DNA from: an uncultured Clostridia bacterium
Lineage (GTDB): Bacteria > Bacillota > Clostridia > TANB77 > CAG-508
NCBI GenBank assembly: GCA_934167495.1
Contig: CAKPKP010000005.1
Span: 19,451-83,450 of the forward strand
Direction: 5' to 3'
DNA length: 64,000 nucleotides
Made by a program: the position numbers and the translations under genes. The notes beneath the pieces are model-generated. The model had not been told where the DNA came from, made no database searches, and was given only the letters and a program-made list of their open reading frames with translations. This document shows positions 47,899 to 62,315 of this stretch, piece after piece. The number at the start of each line of letters is the position of its first letter. The stretch's first letter is position 1.

Positions 47899-48086
47899 TA
47901 CAAAGTATTTATCTAATAGGAATTTCAAAGAAATTTTCTATTAGAGAACAAAAGCGGAAATTAATAACTTTTGTACTTATTAAAACATTTTGAAGTCCGC
48001 GTCTTTGTTCGTGTGCGAAATTTGCAAAGCAAATTTCTGTACAAAGTATTTATCTAATAGGAATTTCAAAGAAATTTCCTATTAGA
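47899..48086 (-). repeat. Structured intergenic repeat, copy A (about 95-nt core flanked by two 46-nt direct repeats, each a hairpin AATAGGAATTTCaaaGAAATTTCCTATT)
   Basis: The core aacaaaagcggaaattaataacttttgtacttattaaaacattttgaagtccgcgtctttgttcgtgtgcgaaatttgcaaagcaaatttctgtacaaa is nearly identical to 54782..54877 and 60590..60685. Sits directly 3' of the minus-strand gene 48143..48883. Confidence 0.8.
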
Positions 48087-48142
48087 TAAAAAAGAAGCTA
48101 CCTATATTTCAAGGTAACTTCTAAAAAATCTAATTACTAATT

Positions 48143-48883
48143 TCAATCTTTTTTTCTTCCGCCAAATAAAATTTGATTATTACTAAAATCTTCTTCCTCT
48201 TCAACCTCTTGTTGCTTCTTAGATTTTAATATTTTCTGTCTAGGCTTTTTTATTTTTTCTTCTTTCTGAGTTCTTGCAATTGCTTCATCTACAGACAAAG
48301 TTTTTTCATATTCTATAATATTATGCACTGGTTCTTCATAAATTCCCTCTAAATATATATCTTTTTTTAAAGGTTTCTCCATACTAATATCATATAAATA
48401 TCTATCTATTATATTTCTTTCGTTTTTACTATATAAATCCATTTCTAAGTGTAAATAATTATATCTCCATATTACATGTCGTTCATATGGTGTATACTTA
48501 GATTTATTTAAATTTTCATAATCATATTCTACTTTAAAATGAAATTTTTCAATAGATATTGTAATATTACTCCAAACTTTTCTTTCTTTTTTTATAGCAA
48601 TCTCTCTTAATTTTTTTATAGTATTATATAAACTATTTATTAATTCAGAATATTTATCTTCATCTATGTTAAATATTGTAGGTATTTCATATGCATTTAT
48701 TGGCTTCTTTTTTATTATTCCTTTTGGAAAGTAATAAAAATACATTTCACCTACTGGTCTTTTAAATGGTACATCTATTATAGAAGCATACAAAAATATG
48801 CTTTCCCATTTTTCTGGGATTAGATAAAACAATTTCTTTTGTATGTCTTCATATAAAATTTTTTCTTGTTTTGAGCTTAGCAT
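48143..48883 (-). CDS. Hypothetical protein (246 aa) inserted between eno and gpmI
   Basis: ORF only; lysine/glutamate-rich C-terminal tail. Confidence 0.35.
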   Translation of the reverse strand: MLSSKQEKILYEDIQKKLFYLIPEKWESIFLYASIIDVPFKRPVGEMYFYYFPKGIIKKKPINAYEIPTIFNIDEDKYSELINSLYNTIKKLREIAIKKERKVWSNITISIEKFHFKVEYDYENLNKSKYTPYERHVIWRYNYLHLEMDLYSKNERNIIDRYLYDISMEKPLKKDIYLEGIYEEPVHNIIEYEKTLSVDEAIARTQKEEKIKKPRQKILKSKKQQEVEEEEDFSNNQILFGGRKKD

Positions 48884-48914
48884 AAATGTATATCCCTTCC
48901 TTAGAATACTTAAA

Positions 48915-50444
48915 CTAATCTTCTAATAAACTTTCCCCTGTCATTTCCTCTGGTTTTTCTAATTCCATAAGATCTAACATTGTTGGTGCTAAATCTGCTA
49001 GTCTACCTTCCTTTAATTTTTTATTTGTGTCTGAAATTAGAACTAATGGTACTGGATTTGTAGTATGTGCTGTATGTGGTTCTCCAGTTTTATAATCTAT
49101 CATTTGTTCTGAATTTCCATGATCAGCTGTTATTAAAAGATTTCCATGTTTTTCTTTTATTGCTTTAACTACTCTTGCAACACATGTATCTAATGTTTCT
49201 AAAGCTTTTATACAAGCTTCTATATTTCCTGTATGACCTACCATATCTGGATTTGCATAATTTAAAATAATGCAATTATATTTTTCTGATTCTATTGCTT
49301 CTACAACTTTATCAGTAACTTCTATAGCACTCATTTCTGGTTTTAAATCATATGTTTCAACTTTTGGAGAAGGTATTAATATTCTGTCTTCACCTTCATA
49401 TTGTTTTTCTTGTCCTCCATTAAAGAAGAATGTTACGTGAGCATATTTTTCTGTTTCTGCTATTCTTAATTGTGTAAATCCTAATTTACTTATATATTCT
49501 CCTAATGTATTTTTTATTTCATCTTTCTTAAATGCTACTTCTACATTTGGCATTGTTTCATCATATGGTGTGAAACAAACGAAAAATGTTTTAAAATATT
49601 CTCTTTCGAATCCGTCAAAATTTTCATCAACAATACTTCTAGTTATTTCTCTTGCTCTATCTGGTCTAAAATTAAAGAATATTACTGAATCATTTTCTGA
49701 AATTTTAGCAATTGGTTCGTCATTATTACATATAACAATAGGTTTAACAAATTCATCAAATACTTCTTTTTGATATGATTCTTCAATTGCTGCTGTTGCA
49801 GAACTAAATTTTTCACCTTCACCTTTAACCATTGCATTATAAGCTTCTTTTACTCTTTCCCATCTTTTATCTCTATCCATTGCGTAAAATCTACCACATA
49901 AAGTTGCTATTTTACCAACACCTTTTTCTTCCATCTTCTTTTCTAATTCTGCAATATAAGTTTCTGCTGATGCTGGTGGTGTATCTCTTCCGTCTAAGAA
50001 GCAATGTACATATACATCTTCAAAATCTTTTCTTTTAGCCATTTCTAATAATGCATATAAATGTCTTATATGACTATGAACGCCACCATCTGAAACTAAT
50101 CCCATAATGTGTAATTTTGAATTATTTTTCTTACAATTTTCTATTGCAGAAACAAACTCTGGTATACTAAAGAAATCTCCATCTTCTATAGATTTTGTTA
50201 TTTTAGTAAAATCTTGATAAATAATTCTTCCTGCACCTATATTTGTATGTCCTACTTCTGAATTTCCCATTTGTCCTTCAGGTAATCCTACATCTAATCC
50301 ACTAGTATGAATTATTGTACTAGGATTTTTTGTAAATATTTCATCCAAATTTGGTGTGTTTGCTAATTTTACACAATTTCCTTCTTCTGATTCATTAATA
50401 CCATACCCATCAAGTATCATAAGCATTGTTAATTTTTTATTCAT
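48915..50444 (-). CDS. gpmI: 2,3-bisphosphoglycerate-independent phosphoglycerate mutase
   Basis: 509 aa; N-terminal LMILDGYG and metal-binding motifs; glycolytic synteny. Confidence 0.9.
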   Translation of the reverse strand: MNKKLTMLMILDGYGINESEEGNCVKLANTPNLDEIFTKNPSTIIHTSGLDVGLPEGQMGNSEVGHTNIGAGRIIYQDFTKITKSIEDGDFFSIPEFVSAIENCKKNNSKLHIMGLVSDGGVHSHIRHLYALLEMAKRKDFEDVYVHCFLDGRDTPPASAETYIAELEKKMEEKGVGKIATLCGRFYAMDRDKRWERVKEAYNAMVKGEGEKFSSATAAIEESYQKEVFDEFVKPIVICNNDEPIAKISENDSVIFFNFRPDRAREITRSIVDENFDGFEREYFKTFFVCFTPYDETMPNVEVAFKKDEIKNTLGEYISKLGFTQLRIAETEKYAHVTFFFNGGQEKQYEGEDRILIPSPKVETYDLKPEMSAIEVTDKVVEAIESEKYNCIILNYANPDMVGHTGNIEACIKALETLDTCVARVVKAIKEKHGNLLITADHGNSEQMIDYKTGEPHTAHTTNPVPLVLISDTNKKLKEGRLADLAPTMLDLMELEKPEEMTGESLLED

Positions 50445-50474
50445 TTCGTTATTCTCCTTTTCATTTTCCGTTTC

Positions 50475-60760: not shown

Positions 60761-60823
60761 AGCTATATAACATTAAACTTTAGCTTTCCAAAAATTTGTA
60801 TATTTAATTTTATATAGCATAAA

Positions 60824-60862
60824 AGAAACGGTTAATAATTTTGTTATTAACCGTTTCTTTTT
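60824..60862 (-). terminator. Bidirectional rho-independent terminator 3' of lysC
   Basis: aaaAGAAACGGTTAATAAttttgTTATTAACCGTTTCTtttt. Confidence 0.65.
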
Positions 60863-60864
60863 AA

Positions 60865-62076
60865 TTATTCCTTAAAAAATTTATCATGAATTGCTTTTAA
60901 TGCTAAATCTGATTCATTTGCATTTACCAGAACTGATATTTTAATTTCTGAGGTACTTATCATATGCATATTTATATTGTTTTCGTATAAAGCTTCAAAC
61001 ATATCAGCTGCGACTCCTGGTTTATTTGTTATTCCTACACCTACAATAGATATTTTTGAAAGTTTTTCACAATGAAGAATTTCTTTTGCATTTATTTCTT
61101 CTAAATGATTATTTAAAATTTCTAAAGTTCTATCTAAATCAGCTGTTTTTATAGTGAATGCTAAATCTTTTGTTATATGTTCACCAAAAGACTGAACTAT
61201 TACATCAACATTTATATTGTTTTGTGCTAATAATTTAAATACTTTATATGTTCTTCCTATTTTATTTTCTATTCCAACTATTGTAATTCTAGAAACATTG
61301 TCATCCTTAGTTACTCCACTTATAAATAAATCTTCTAATTGATTTAAATTAGTAACTAAAGTTCCTTTGCTTTTCTCTTCAAATGTTGATTTCACATAAA
61401 TTGGTACATTATATTTTTGTCCTATTTCAACACATCTATTATGAAGCACTTTTGCTCCCATGCTAGCTAATTCTAGCATTTCATCATATGAGACCTTATC
61501 TAACTTTTTTACATTTTCAACAATTCTTGGATCCGCAGTATATACTCCATCTACATCTGTAAAAATATCACATCTTTCAGCTTTTAAACTTGCTGCTAAA
61601 GCAACCGCTGTTGTATCAGAACCACCTCTTCCTAAAGTCGTTATATCTTTATTTTCATTTATTCCTTGAAATCCTGCTACAACTACAATGTTACCTTCAT
61701 CTAGATAATCTTCTATAGTTTTGTTATTTATATACTGAATTCTACTATTTCCATGCTCTCCAACTGTTAATATTGGTATTTGCCATCCTGTAAGTGATAC
61801 AGCTTTATAATTTAATTTATTAAGAGCAATACATAATTTTGATATAGTTATTTGCTCGCCTGTTGAAACTAAAACATCATGTTCTCTTTTATTTGGTCTG
61901 TCAGTTATTTCATTTTCTTCTGCTATTAATCTATCTGTTGTTTTTCCTTGTGCTGAAACAACTACTACCACTTTATTTCCTTTATCATACTCTTCGATTA
62001 TATGTTTACATACATTAAATAATTTTTCTGTATTTGCTACAGAGCTTCCTCCAAATTTTTGTACAATTATGCCCAT
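60865..62076 (-). CDS. lysC: Aspartate kinase (monofunctional, with ACT domains)
   Basis: MGIIVQKFGGSSVAN N-terminus (amino-acid kinase); two C-terminal ACT-like segments; 403 aa. Confidence 0.9.
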   Translation of the reverse strand: MGIIVQKFGGSSVANTEKLFNVCKHIIEEYDKGNKVVVVVSAQGKTTDRLIAEENEITDRPNKREHDVLVSTGEQITISKLCIALNKLNYKAVSLTGWQIPILTVGEHGNSRIQYINNKTIEDYLDEGNIVVVAGFQGINENKDITTLGRGGSDTTAVALAASLKAERCDIFTDVDGVYTADPRIVENVKKLDKVSYDEMLELASMGAKVLHNRCVEIGQKYNVPIYVKSTFEEKSKGTLVTNLNQLEDLFISGVTKDDNVSRITIVGIENKIGRTYKVFKLLAQNNINVDVIVQSFGEHITKDLAFTIKTADLDRTLEILNNHLEEINAKEILHCEKLSKISIVGVGITNKPGVAADMFEALYENNINMHMISTSEIKISVLVNANESDLALKAIHDKFFKE

Positions 62077-62207
62077 AGTTTTGGCACCTCTTTACTATAT
62101 TGATGTTTAAAAATATTTAAGTTTAAATATTTTATTTTAGTTTATTATATTATATTTTTTATTCAAAACATTTGTGATTATGCATTATTTTAAATAGTTA
62201 ATTTTAT

Positions 62208-62315
62208 ATAACAATAGTGGGCTGATTAAATTTTTCCATATTTTAAATTGTAGAATTCAGCCCACGTTTAATTGTTCGTGCGTGAAATTTGCATATAGCA
62301 AATTTCCTATTATAG
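62208..62315 (-). repeat. Structured intergenic repeat, copy D (variant whose large hairpin is GGGCTGA...TCAGCCC instead of GCGGAC...GTCCGC, followed by the conserved gaaatttgc..gcaaatttc hairpin)
   Basis: ataacaatagtgggctgattaaatttttccatattttaaattgtagaattcagcccacgtttaattgttcgtgcgtgaaatttgcatatagcaaatttcctattatag. Confidence 0.7.

What the first reader, a model, noticed from the sequence alone, without database searches (positions are those of the whole stretch)
47899..62315. Family of highly structured, co-oriented intergenic repeats (four copies plus a lone hairpin module) immediately 3' of minus-strand genes
Copies lie at 47899-48086, 54782-54925, 60581-60760 and 62208-62315. They share a core of about 95 nt with a 6-bp GC stem enclosing an A/T-rich internal stem (GCGGAC...GTCCGC) and a perfect 9-bp hairpin (GAAATTTGCaaaGCAAATTTC). 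A second hairpin module (AATAGGAAnTTCannGAAnTTCCTATT) is appended; it also occurs alone at 52533-52560. Copy D replaces the big stem with GGGCTGA...TCAGCCC, a compensatory change that preserves pairing and argues for selection on RNA or DNA structure. All copies are in the same orientation relative to the upstream minus-strand gene. In copies A and B the big hairpin is followed by a U-run on the transcribed strand. This points to terminator or 3'-UTR-derived sRNA elements, or a BOX/RUP-like mobile modular repeat that homes to terminators. Copy C overlaps the stop codon of a plus-strand ORF.
Basis: seen in the sequence. Interest (0 to 1): 0.7.

Follow-up and report, generated by a model that had tools for sequence, protein, structure and literature searches.

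The report
Terminator-seeking hairpin repeat of gut Clostridia
The repeats are real copies of an undescribed 141-base, three-hairpin, non-coding mobile DNA element that uncultured human-gut Clostridia carry in many copies and that lands right after the T-run of gene terminators; it looks like selfish DNA, not a host RNA gene.

Summary
The unit is 141 nt with three modules: M1 (big stem), M2 (9-bp hairpin) and M3 (long A/T hairpin). A capped scan found it in at least 25 species-level genomes of uncultured gut Clostridia (13 or more loci in one assembly), always between genes. It has no match in Rfam, phages, plasmids or papers. Pairing is kept by compensatory changes (94.7% of cells paired, against 36-46% when partners are slid). 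G-U counts favour neither strand. Copies shared between species diverge as fast as their flanks. Strains of the window's own species differ by presence, absence or copy number at five sites in 21 kb. On the gene strand the unit follows TTTTTTTAT, the tail of the upstream terminator. That TTTAT is not part of the unit, which ends in a similar GTTCT after its own terminator-like hairpin. There are no terminal inverted repeats and no target duplication. One empty/filled pair is exact at both junctions. This layout matches non-autonomous IS200/IS605-type elements, but no transposase was found. The '3'-UTR sRNA or terminator' reading is not supported; 'mobile modular repeat homing to terminators' is. 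It is a new member of a known kind, of moderate interest.

The parts
47945..48085 (-). Copy A, a full 141-nt unit. On the + strand it reads M1 47945-48011, M2 48011-48043, M3 48047-48085. The active (top) strand is taken to be the minus (gene) strand.
   Evidence: Covariance model 165 bits; modules. It is absent from 5 of 7 strains, which keep only one M3 here (141-nt indel).
47899..47944 (-). Second M3 hairpin plus spacer on the far side of copy A. It is a direct repeat of 48040-48085.
   Evidence: (family D2). In the strain alignment the two M3 copies bracket the M2-M1 core.
48086..48122 (-). Terminator of the YezG-like gene (hairpin 48093-48122) with its T-run and the TTTAT junction abutting copy A.
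   Evidence: terminator-like site 48122-48093; junction logo.
52524..52568 (-). Lone M3 module, flush after the GAPDH terminator (52567-52597) and ahead of pgk.
   Evidence: E 5e-4; ssDNA fold -13.9 kcal/mol, z -9.9. Present in all 7 strains.
53814..53931 (-). It has M3 and spacer, an M2 variant (AAAATTTAT-gaa-ATAAATTTT) with three double changes against the main type, and an unrelated 45-nt filler in place of M1.
   Evidence: 53857-53931, E 6e-4. In strain L078 the same M3 is followed by a canonical M2-M1 core with exact boundaries, a 'core swap'.
53940..53965 (-). Terminator of the 233-aa gene, abutting the degenerate copy.
54781..54921 (-). Copy B, a full unit (M1 54781-54847, M2 54847-54879, M3 54883-54921).
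   Evidence: Covariance model 180 bits. Filled in 3 strains and empty in 4. Junctions are exact: TTTAT|unit|ACAATAG against TTTAT|ACAATAG.
54770..54780 (-). Left arm (ACAATAGAAAA on the gene strand) of an older, diverged M3-like hairpin. The hairpin is complete in the empty alleles.
54922..54955 (-). TTTAT junction, T-run and terminator hairpin (54933-54955) of the 142-aa gene.
60580..60720 (-). Copy C, a full unit. The 5' arm of its M1 is of the D type (GAACAATAGTGGAC), so the big stem is a hybrid. Its TAG is the stop codon of the plus-strand ORF that ends at 60589.
   Evidence: 167 bits. Absent in strain L080 and doubled in tandem in L078.
60721..60760 (-). Remnant of a D-type M1 (AACAATAGTGAGCTAATGGGCTGATTAAAC) next to copy C. 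It shares the direct repeat CACTATTGTT with the end of C.
62208..62313 (-). Copy D: D-type M1 (62208-62277), M2 with a 5-nt loop (62284-62306), and only the outer arm of M3 (62306-62313). It is flush with the terminator at 62322-62345.
   Evidence: 55 bits, E 4e-11; fold. Present in all strains.
44671..44686 (-). Empty site in the window. Four other strains carry a full unit here, directly after the T-run of the 235-aa gene's terminator.

Best explanation
The repeats are copies of a non-coding, non-autonomous mobile element of 141 nt. Read on the strand of the neighbouring genes, it runs from a long A/T hairpin (M3, the left end), through a 9-bp hairpin (M2), to a large branched hairpin with a GC foot and a T-rich tail (M1, the right end, ...GTCCGC-TTTTGTTCT). 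It has no terminal inverted repeats and makes no target duplication. It sits immediately 3' of the pentamer TTTAT at the end of a terminator T-run, and it ends in the similar pentamer GTTCT. This is the layout of IS200/IS605-family elements and their gene-less derivatives (palindrome-associated transposable elements). A single-strand-specific HUH (Y1) transposase supplied in trans moves such elements. It recognises the two subterminal hairpins and cuts next to short motifs that pair with hairpin-adjacent bases. Because the element's own right end mimics its target (a hairpin plus a T-rich tail), a new unit can land behind an old one, which gives tandem arrays. Recombination between modules then produces lone M3 or M1 remnants, chimeric hairpins and copy-number changes. 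The hairpins are kept because only foldable copies are mobilised, not because the host needs them. Shown here: the family, its anatomy, copy number, junction motif, orientation bias, strain-level presence and absence, covariation, and lack of constraint on single copies. Inferred: the single-strand HUH mechanism and the enzyme in trans, which was not found. The confidence of 0.55 is for the whole statement. That it is a mobile or recombining interspersed repeat and not a host RNA gene I put at about 0.85. The specific HUH single-strand mechanism I put at about 0.45.
For: There are 95 nhmmer hits, 66 of them full length, and none lies inside a gene.

Anatomy: three modules, mostly in the order M1-M2-M3, with tandem arrays and solo M1 or M3.

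Structure: 94.7% of cells are paired, against 36-46% when partners are slid. Fourteen pairs show double changes, and 64 cells have changes on both sides, against 16.6 in shuffles (0 of 500 shuffles reach it). Both strands fold equally well as ssDNA (-32.2 and -32.5 kcal/mol).

Junction: the nine bases before M3 read TTTTTTTAT in 51 non-tandem copies (A at -2 in 46 of 51, T at -1 in 49 of 51). In 8 tandem or M1-preceded copies they read TTTGTTCT. So TTTAT is flank, not element, and it parallels the element's 3' end.

Clean empty/filled pair: TTTAT|ACAATAG against TTTAT|unit|ACAATAG, with no duplication.

Terminators: a terminator hairpin plus T-run ends flush with M3 in 41 of 64 copies, against 3 of 64 on the other flank (p 3e-13).

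Orientation: 53 of 65 copies. The top strand lies on the G-rich strand of the window, with GC skew -0.14 to -0.35. That fits insertion into the lagging-strand template, as reported for this IS family (PMC3333891).

Mobility: five polymorphic sites in 21 kb among strains that differ at only 0-38 of 5483 bases.

No host constraint: copies shared between species are 94.0% identical, their flanks 95.5%.

Precedent: ISGst2 of Geobacillus uses the same TTTAT motif and has gene-less relatives (PMC10055086).
Against: No transposase (TnpA, RAYT or TnpB) was found. The search covered about 620 kb around the copies (with queries recalled from memory, a weak test) plus the Pfam-annotated strain loci. No ORF family recurs next to the copies.

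The left hairpin starts at the first base of the unit. In IS608 the hairpin lies about 19 nt inside, with the guide 5' of its foot, so the geometry differs.

Only one of the five polymorphic sites is a clean insertion. Sites A and C can be explained by recombination between repeated modules. Site E carries 40 extra bases. Site F is a core replacement.

TTTAT is very common in a genome of 27% GC, so the motif alone cannot explain the choice of terminators.

Orientation relative to replication is inferred from GC skew of a coding-dense window, which is confounded by codon composition.
Confidence: 0.55

Rival explanations
1. REP/BIME-like system. M3 (and M1) are REP-type palindromes spread and rearranged by a single-copy, domesticated Y1 transposase (RAYT/TnpA-REP), not by an insertion sequence. 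The composite units would be BIME-like mosaics with possible host roles.
For: The element behaves like BIMEs: tandem amplification, copy number that differs between strains at one locus, chimeric hairpins (the lone M3 of L077) and linker or core variation. The same behaviour is described for BIMEs in PMC3333891. The M3 hairpin carries a conserved unpaired T, as REPs carry non-complementary bases needed for binding. Solo M3 modules are common.
Against: There is no conserved GTAG-type tetranucleotide 5' of the hairpin foot. The units are co-oriented, not paired head-to-head. No RAYT gene was seen (a weak test). The fixed TTTAT|unit...GTTCT frame fits a discrete transposable unit better.
Confidence: 0.15
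2. Host-selected RNA element: a back-up or bidirectional terminator, an insulator, an mRNA-stabilising 3' structure, or a family of small RNAs.
For: On the gene strand M1 is a GC-footed hairpin followed by UUUUGUUCU. Folds are far more stable than shuffles (z -7.6 to -8.8). Pairing is kept by compensatory changes. In some loci the next gene's ribosome-binding site lies 10-23 nt past M1, so the element must be transcribed there.
Against: The copies lie after an existing terminator in at least 64% of cases. There is no Rfam hit. No strand is preferred by G-U over A-C counts: 68 against 40, with 17 of the 68 coming from one inherited variant. Orthologous copies evolve as fast as or faster than their flanks. 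Copies come and go between near-identical strains next to core glycolysis genes with no linked change. If M1 were an efficient terminator, it would silence the genes that start 10-23 nt behind it.
Confidence: 0.1
3. Spread without a dedicated enzyme. Units pop out and re-enter by homologous or slipped-strand recombination between shared modules, and move between strains by DNA uptake.
For: Sites A and C are flanked by direct repeats of a module (46 nt of M3; CACTATTGTT of M1). The indels equal exactly one period. Tandem copy number varies (L028 against L058; L078 site C). Hybrid stems and chimeric hairpins show gene conversion.
Against: This cannot seed naive sites. Yet site B is an exact insertion with no shared module on the left. 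In addition, 51 independent loci share the same TTTTTTTAT junction with unrelated terminators.
Confidence: 0.1
4. Classical MITE cut and pasted by a DDE transposase that recognises terminal inverted repeats. The repeats could be the arms of M1 (AGAACAAAAGCGGAC/GTCCGCGTCTTTGTTC), with M2 and M3 as passengers.
For: M1 alone has 13-15-bp inverted ends and occurs as solo copies. BOX and RUP, the closest Firmicute analogues, are explained this way (PMC3049150).
Against: The full unit has no terminal inverted repeats: M3 at one end and M1 at the other are unrelated. No target duplication is seen at site B or around solo M1 copies. The strong orientation bias and the asymmetric flank motif are not expected for elements with symmetric inverted ends.
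Confidence: 0.07

Closest known systems
Palindrome-associated transposable elements (PATEs) and IS200/IS605-family ends, e.g. ISGst2 of Geobacillus stearothermophilus and IS608
   Same: No coding capacity, no terminal inverted repeats and no target duplication. A hairpin sits at each end. A conserved 5'-flanking pentamer (TTTAT, identical to the ISGst2 motif) lies outside the element, and a similar pentamer sits at the 3' end. There is a strand and orientation bias. Part of the 3' pentamer (GTTC) pairs with bases just 5' of the right hairpin's foot (PMC10055086; PMC3333891).
   Different: No cognate tnpA or tnpB was found. The left hairpin starts at base 1 instead of about 19 nt inside the element. 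The T-run before TTTAT is longer than a 5-nt motif requires. Terminators are strongly preferred. There is no sequence similarity to described IS ends, and no Rfam hit for omega-RNA-type families.
REP/BIME elements with RAYT (TnpA-REP) of enterobacteria and pseudomonads
   Same: Intergenic position after the 3' ends of genes. Imperfect palindromes with a conserved unpaired base. Mosaic and tandem arrangements. Copy number and linkers vary between strains (PMC3333891).
   Different: No GTAG motif and no head-to-head REP pairs. The unit is far longer (141 nt, three different hairpins). The host is a low-GC Clostridia lineage. No RAYT was seen.
BOX elements of Streptococcus pneumoniae (boxA-boxB-boxC)
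   Same: Modular small repeats of a Firmicute. Lone modules and variable module numbers occur. Stable folds are predicted. They are enriched downstream of genes (PMC3049150).
   Different: BOX has terminal inverted repeats and target duplications, and only a weak orientation bias (about 61%). Here there are none of the first two, the bias is 82%, and the junction with terminator tails is fixed.
[quoted passage not shown]
   Same: A/T-rich, about 105 nt, looks like a terminator, and lies close to the 3' ends of coding sequences (PMC3049150).
   Different: SPRITE is itself a single long hairpin plus a U-tract and may serve as the terminator. The present element sits behind a separate, native terminator and has three hairpins.
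Group IIC introns (target choice only; recalled from the field's general knowledge, not tested here)
   Same: They insert in one orientation just downstream of intrinsic terminator stem-loops.
   Different: They are ribozymes of at least 600 nt with a reverse transcriptase. The element has no intron domains or GUGYG...AY ends in the right places, and no Rfam intron hit.

Membership tests
IS200/IS605-type non-autonomous element (PATE) | No terminal inverted repeats and no target-site duplication | tested here: met
   The ends (M3 against M1) are unrelated. Site B reads TTTAT|unit|ACAATAG against TTTAT|ACAATAG.
IS200/IS605-type non-autonomous element (PATE) | Subterminal imperfect hairpins at both ends | tested here: met
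   M3 carries a conserved extra T. M1 has a GC foot. Pairing is kept by covariation. The left hairpin is terminal, not subterminal.
IS200/IS605-type non-autonomous element (PATE) | A conserved short motif 5' of the left end (the target), and a related motif at the right end | tested here: met
   TTTAT in 46-49 of 51 non-tandem copies. GTTCT at the 3' end and at 8 tandem junctions.
IS200/IS605-type non-autonomous element (PATE) | A cognate Y1 (HUH) transposase, and an autonomous IS with the same ends, in the same genomes | tested here: inconclusive
   None was found in about 0.9 Mb sampled. Whole genomes could not be read.
IS200/IS605-type non-autonomous element (PATE) | Top strand on the lagging-strand template | tested here: inconclusive
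   Orientation follows the genes in 53 of 65 copies, and the window's G-rich strand. The replication direction is not known directly.
REP/BIME with RAYT | A 20-40-nt imperfect palindrome with a conserved 5' tetranucleotide (GTAG-like), mostly in inverted pairs | tested here: not met
   M3 is a 35-45-nt palindrome, but there is no GTAG-type motif and the units are co-oriented.
REP/BIME with RAYT | A RAYT gene flanked by the repeats | tested here: inconclusive
   Not seen in the sampled DNA. Genomes were not searched in full.
MITE (DDE-transposase type; BOX, RUP, Correia) | Terminal inverted repeats plus flanking direct target repeats | tested here: not met
Intrinsic terminator / 3'-UTR-derived small RNA | Lies within the transcript, upstream of or forming the terminator of the gene | tested here: not met
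   A separate terminator precedes the element in 41 of 64 copies, and at A, B, D, the lone M3 and copy F in the window.
Intrinsic terminator / 3'-UTR-derived small RNA | Expression as a discrete RNA | not testable with these tools
   No transcript data are available.
Any Rfam family | Score at or above the family's gathering threshold | tested here: not met
   Only RNase P RNA and one tRNA pass in the window. Around copy A only chance-level hits appear.

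The most novel reading that the evidence does not exclude
The element is the gene-less form of an undescribed HUH-type (IS200/IS605-like) transposon lineage of uncultured gut Clostridia. 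It uses the 'hairpin plus T-tail' shape of intrinsic terminators as its landing pad, and it carries a copy of that shape at its own right end. Its M2-M1 part could be a guide-RNA (omega-RNA-like) scaffold. If so, each of the dozens of copies would direct a TnpB-type nuclease to the sequence next to a terminator. The exact core replacement behind one M3 hairpin (site F) would then reflect cassette-like exchange at a hairpin attachment point.
Probability: 0.15. Interest if true: 0.65.

Novelty: new member of a known kind. Interest (0 to 1): 0.42.

Why it matters
It adds an undescribed, high-copy repeat family to a poorly known, uncultured clade of human-gut Clostridia. It also shows that most short structural differences between strains in this region coincide with it. 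That matters for strain typing, for assembly breaks and for annotation: stop codons supplied by the element, spurious ORFs and false 'sRNA' calls. The fixed junction with terminator tails gives a testable rule for target choice. If the single-strand transposase model holds, the case shows how such elements find harmless landing sites by recognising terminator-shaped DNA. If it fails, the mobilising activity is unknown and worth finding.

Tried and rejected
- Rfam at gathering thresholds on the whole window, and in E-value mode around copy A, gave nothing relevant.
- Exact-pattern scan of viral contigs gave 0 hits.
- blastn of copy B against phages and plasmids gave no match.
- Full-text search for the element's sequences gave 0 papers. 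A first keyword search returned only plant MITE papers.
- Clustering all ORFs of the 75 loci to find a recurrent, transposase-like neighbour found none. The clusters were orthologous housekeeping genes.
- tblastn with IS200, IS608 and RAYT proteins written from memory gave only chance hits. This is a weak test.
- A search for M3...M1 pairs 0.3-3 kb apart that could bound an autonomous IS found none. The L051 pair brackets a tmRNA-like gene, and the L037 and L031 pairs are unrelated copies.
- Empty/filled comparisons between species (L022/L032, L036/L029, L083/L089) were too diverged to give clean junctions.
- The G-U against A-C asymmetry test meant to pick an RNA strand gave no clear signal.
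- Promoter scan: no convincing sigma-70-type promoter inside the element. Only the TATAAT inside both M3 arms, with no -35 (and reading of the sequence).
- Integron attC, group II intron, IS110 bridge RNA and CodY-box readings were considered from the sequence and dropped, because the defining motifs are absent.
- A weak covariance-model hit at 16201-16271 was read and rejected as chance.
- Strain look-ups for window 0-40 kb found no copies or 141-nt indels there. One look-up found no record.

Full report
**1. The observation**

The repeat finder aligns A (47933-48096), B (54769-54932) and C (60568-60731) at 84-91% identity over 164 nt. It also lists five copies of the A/T hairpin module. A four-way alignment shows that D shares the TTGTTCGTG.G.GAAATTTGC...GCAAATTTC centre but has a different big stem.

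A covariance model built only from copies in other genomes scores A, B and C at 165-180 bits and D at 55 bits. Nothing credible turns up in the first 47 kb. Chance cannot produce this.

**2. What the unit is**

Of these, 72 lie in 25 assemblies labelled uncultured Clostridia or Clostridium sp. from human gut, with 13 loci in one assembly. The other three are chance matches inside genes of unrelated phyla.

nhmmer finds 95 copies or fragments in these loci and the window, 66 of them full length and none inside a gene. The unit has three modules:
- M1: a branched hairpin, AGAACAAAAGCGGAC...GTCCGCGTCTTTGTTC.
- M2: GAAATTTGC-AAA-GCAAATTTC, with a short outer stem.
- M3: ATATTATAGGAAGTTC-GGA-GAACTTTCCTATAATAT, with a conserved extra T.

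The usual order is M1-M2-M3. There are tandem arrays, units with an M3 on both sides, solo M1 and solo M3. M2 is almost never alone. The stem of copy D defines a subfamily of M1 found in six other loci. The degenerate copy at 53.8 kb has a third M2 type with three double changes.

**3. Structure**

On 65 copies, 94.7% of pair cells are standard pairs, against 36-46% when partners are slid. Fourteen pairs show changes on both sides. There are 64 such cells against 16.6 in shuffles, and none of 500 shuffles reaches the observed value. Most double changes lie in the M3 stem, plus those that separate the M1 subfamilies.

Both strands fold equally well as RNA (-61.7 and -55.9 kcal/mol for A with its flanking hairpin) and as DNA (-32.2 and -32.5 kcal/mol for B). 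G-U pairs on the plus strand (68) against the minus strand (40) give no clear strand signal, since 17 of the 68 are one inherited variant. Pairing is therefore selected, but the data do not say whether in RNA or in single-stranded DNA.

**4. Where it sits**

The gene on the M3 side lies on the opposite strand in 53 of 65 copies. The gene on the M1 side does so in 49 of 63. On the gene strand the order is therefore: gene, terminator, M3, M2, M1, next gene.

A simple search finds a unique hairpin plus T-run that ends 5-9 nt from my provisional M3 boundary in 41 of 64 copies. On the other flank the count is 3 of 64 (p 3e-13). Several misses are tandem copies or terminators with long loops.

In the window, terminator-like sites at 48122-48093, 52597-52567, 53965-53940, 54955-54933 and 62345-62322 abut copy A, the lone M3, the degenerate copy, B and D. 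The element therefore lies beyond the normal transcript end, which argues against a 3'-UTR origin.

**5. The junction**

On the gene strand, the nine bases before M3 read TTTTTTTAT in 51 non-tandem copies. T occurs in 32-50 of 51 at positions -9 to -3, A in 46 of 51 at -2, and T in 49 of 51 at -1. In eight copies preceded by another unit or by an M1 remnant, the same positions read TTTGTTCT, the tail of M1.

So the AT is flank, not element. The unit runs from ATTATAGG... to ...GTTCT and is 141 nt long. It is preceded by TTTAT and ends in a similar pentamer. The base after GTTCT varies. GTTC pairs with GAAC just 5' of the GC foot of M1.

There are no terminal inverted repeats. The right end of the unit (a GC-footed hairpin plus TTTTGTTCT) has the same shape as its target (a terminator hairpin plus TTTTTTAT). 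This explains the tandem arrays.

**6. Mobility**

A look-up of the window's PGK protein returned the same 21-kb region from six other gut metagenome assemblies. One is identical to the window, and the rest differ at 6-38 of 5483 aligned bases. Five sites differ by the element:
- Site B (copy B) is filled in three strains and empty in four. The junctions are exact, TTTAT|unit|ACAATAG against TTTAT|ACAATAG, with no duplication. A separate 24-nt deletion lies 11 nt further on.
- Site A: the window and one strain have M3-core-M3. Five strains have one M3, a 141-nt difference. One of those lone M3s is a chimera with another copy's arm.
- Site C: one strain lacks the unit and one has two in tandem. 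The direct repeat CACTATTGTT sits at both ends.
- Site E (window about 44.68 kb) is empty in the window and filled flush after a T-run in four strains, with 40 extra bases.
- Site F: the same M3 is followed by a canonical core in one strain and by a different filler in the others, with exact boundaries.

Thus there is one clean insertion. The other sites show recombination, conversion or replacement between modules.

In contrast, two other 21-kb stretches of the window (0-40 kb) show no unit-sized change in 8-10 strains. The exception is at the border of a variable island, where two strains have a core.

**7. Constraint**

Seven copies shared by related species are 94.0% identical, against 95.5% for 250-nt flanks that include coding DNA. 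Single copies are therefore not conserved for a host function.

**8. Interpretation**

The set of features is:
- non-coding, with no inverted ends and no duplication;
- a hairpin at each end;
- a conserved 5' flanking pentamer and a related 3' terminal pentamer;
- a strong strand bias;
- gene-less multi-copy units.

This is the layout of IS200/IS605-family elements and their gene-less derivatives, as summarised in PMC3333891 and PMC10055086. The latter reports TTTAT as the target motif of ISGst2. The window's plus strand has GC skew of -0.14 to -0.35. The genes and the element's top strand therefore lie on the G-rich strand, which fits insertion into the lagging-strand template. Coding bias confounds this inference.

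The strain-level copy-number changes and chimeras resemble BIME behaviour attributed to RAYT enzymes. I therefore favour mobilisation in trans by a single-strand HUH transposase, followed by module-level recombination.

The weak points are these. No such enzyme was seen in about 0.9 Mb sampled. The left hairpin is terminal, not internal. Only one polymorphic site is a textbook insertion. TTTAT is too common in a 27%-GC genome to explain the preference for terminators by itself.

**9. Rivals**

- An RNA role (back-up terminator, insulator, sRNA) is disfavoured by sections 4 and 7 and by the absence of an Rfam hit. One caveat remains: in loci where the next gene starts 10-23 nt after M1, the element must be transcribed, so M1 cannot be an efficient terminator there.
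- A DDE-type MITE is disfavoured by the missing inverted ends and missing duplications.
- Spread by recombination alone cannot seed naive terminators.
- A REP/RAYT-type system stays open as a close cousin of the favoured model.

**10. Comparison and novelty**

Among Firmicute repeats, BOX is modular but has inverted ends and duplications. SPRITE is terminator-like but is a single hairpin that may itself terminate (PMC3049150; PMC3184786). No paper in the library prints the element's sequences. It is absent from phage, plasmid and viral collections.

It is a new family of a known kind of element. Its distinctive trait is a fixed, polar junction with terminator tails. Interest is moderate. It would rise if the enzyme or a guide-RNA role were found.

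Noticed in passing
window 24417-24763 (-) and 46291-46363 (-): Bacterial RNase P RNA class A (278 bits) and one tRNA gene. These are the only Rfam matches above gathering score in the window.
   Followed up: no
window about 21200-23000; L083 16660-21000, L085, L089: A variable island lies directly after the TRAM/tRNA-U5-methyltransferase gene. The window has a 514-aa protein and a DUF1016/YhcG protein. Other strains carry SIR2_2, HamA, PemK toxin, NUDIX and DUF6933 genes, so it looks like a defence-gene hot spot. In L083 and L085 an M2-M1 core sits at its border.
   Followed up: partly
L036 2030-2170: A different, G-rich nested palindromic repeat (GGGGACGGAGGCTGATGCTTTTGGGGACGGAGC and its mirror) fills the spacer downstream of an HU-like gene, where the related species L029 has the 141-nt element. 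It may be a second repeat family in this clade.
   Followed up: no
window 48143-48883 (-): A YezG-like immunity-protein gene (PF04634) sits inside the gap-pgk-tpi-gpmI-eno glycolytic gene cluster, between gpmI and eno. It is present in all strains examined.
   Followed up: no
L051 2200-2650: A tmRNA-like sequence lies between a partial M2-M3 and a solo M1. Several other copies abut tRNA genes (L012, L032, L061). This suggests a liking for the terminators of highly expressed RNA and protein genes (glycolysis, HU).
   Followed up: no
window 8001-16000: GC content is 0.36 against 0.26-0.28 elsewhere in the window. The stretch holds genes for VWA-like, PP2C-like, NAPRTase and unnamed proteins. It is possibly acquired DNA, or simply a different gene class.
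   Followed up: no
window 44893-44987 and 62714-62760: Short tandem coding repeats rich in GGT/GTT/ACT codons lie in two minus-strand genes. One is a lectin-like/Big_2 surface protein (62513-63949).
   Followed up: no
window 60149-60589 (+); also L029 2139-2528, L001, L053: The first bases of M1 (A-TAG-AAC) supply the stop codon of ORFs that run into the element. In L029 the insertion replaced the last four codons of a 607-aa protein's gene, compared with L036.
   Followed up: partly
window 6111-7607 (-): A Schlafen/AlbA_2-HATPase_c_4-Fic-like_C protein gene lies next to an FtsK/SpoIIIE gene. The layout is identical in 10 strains.
   Followed up: no
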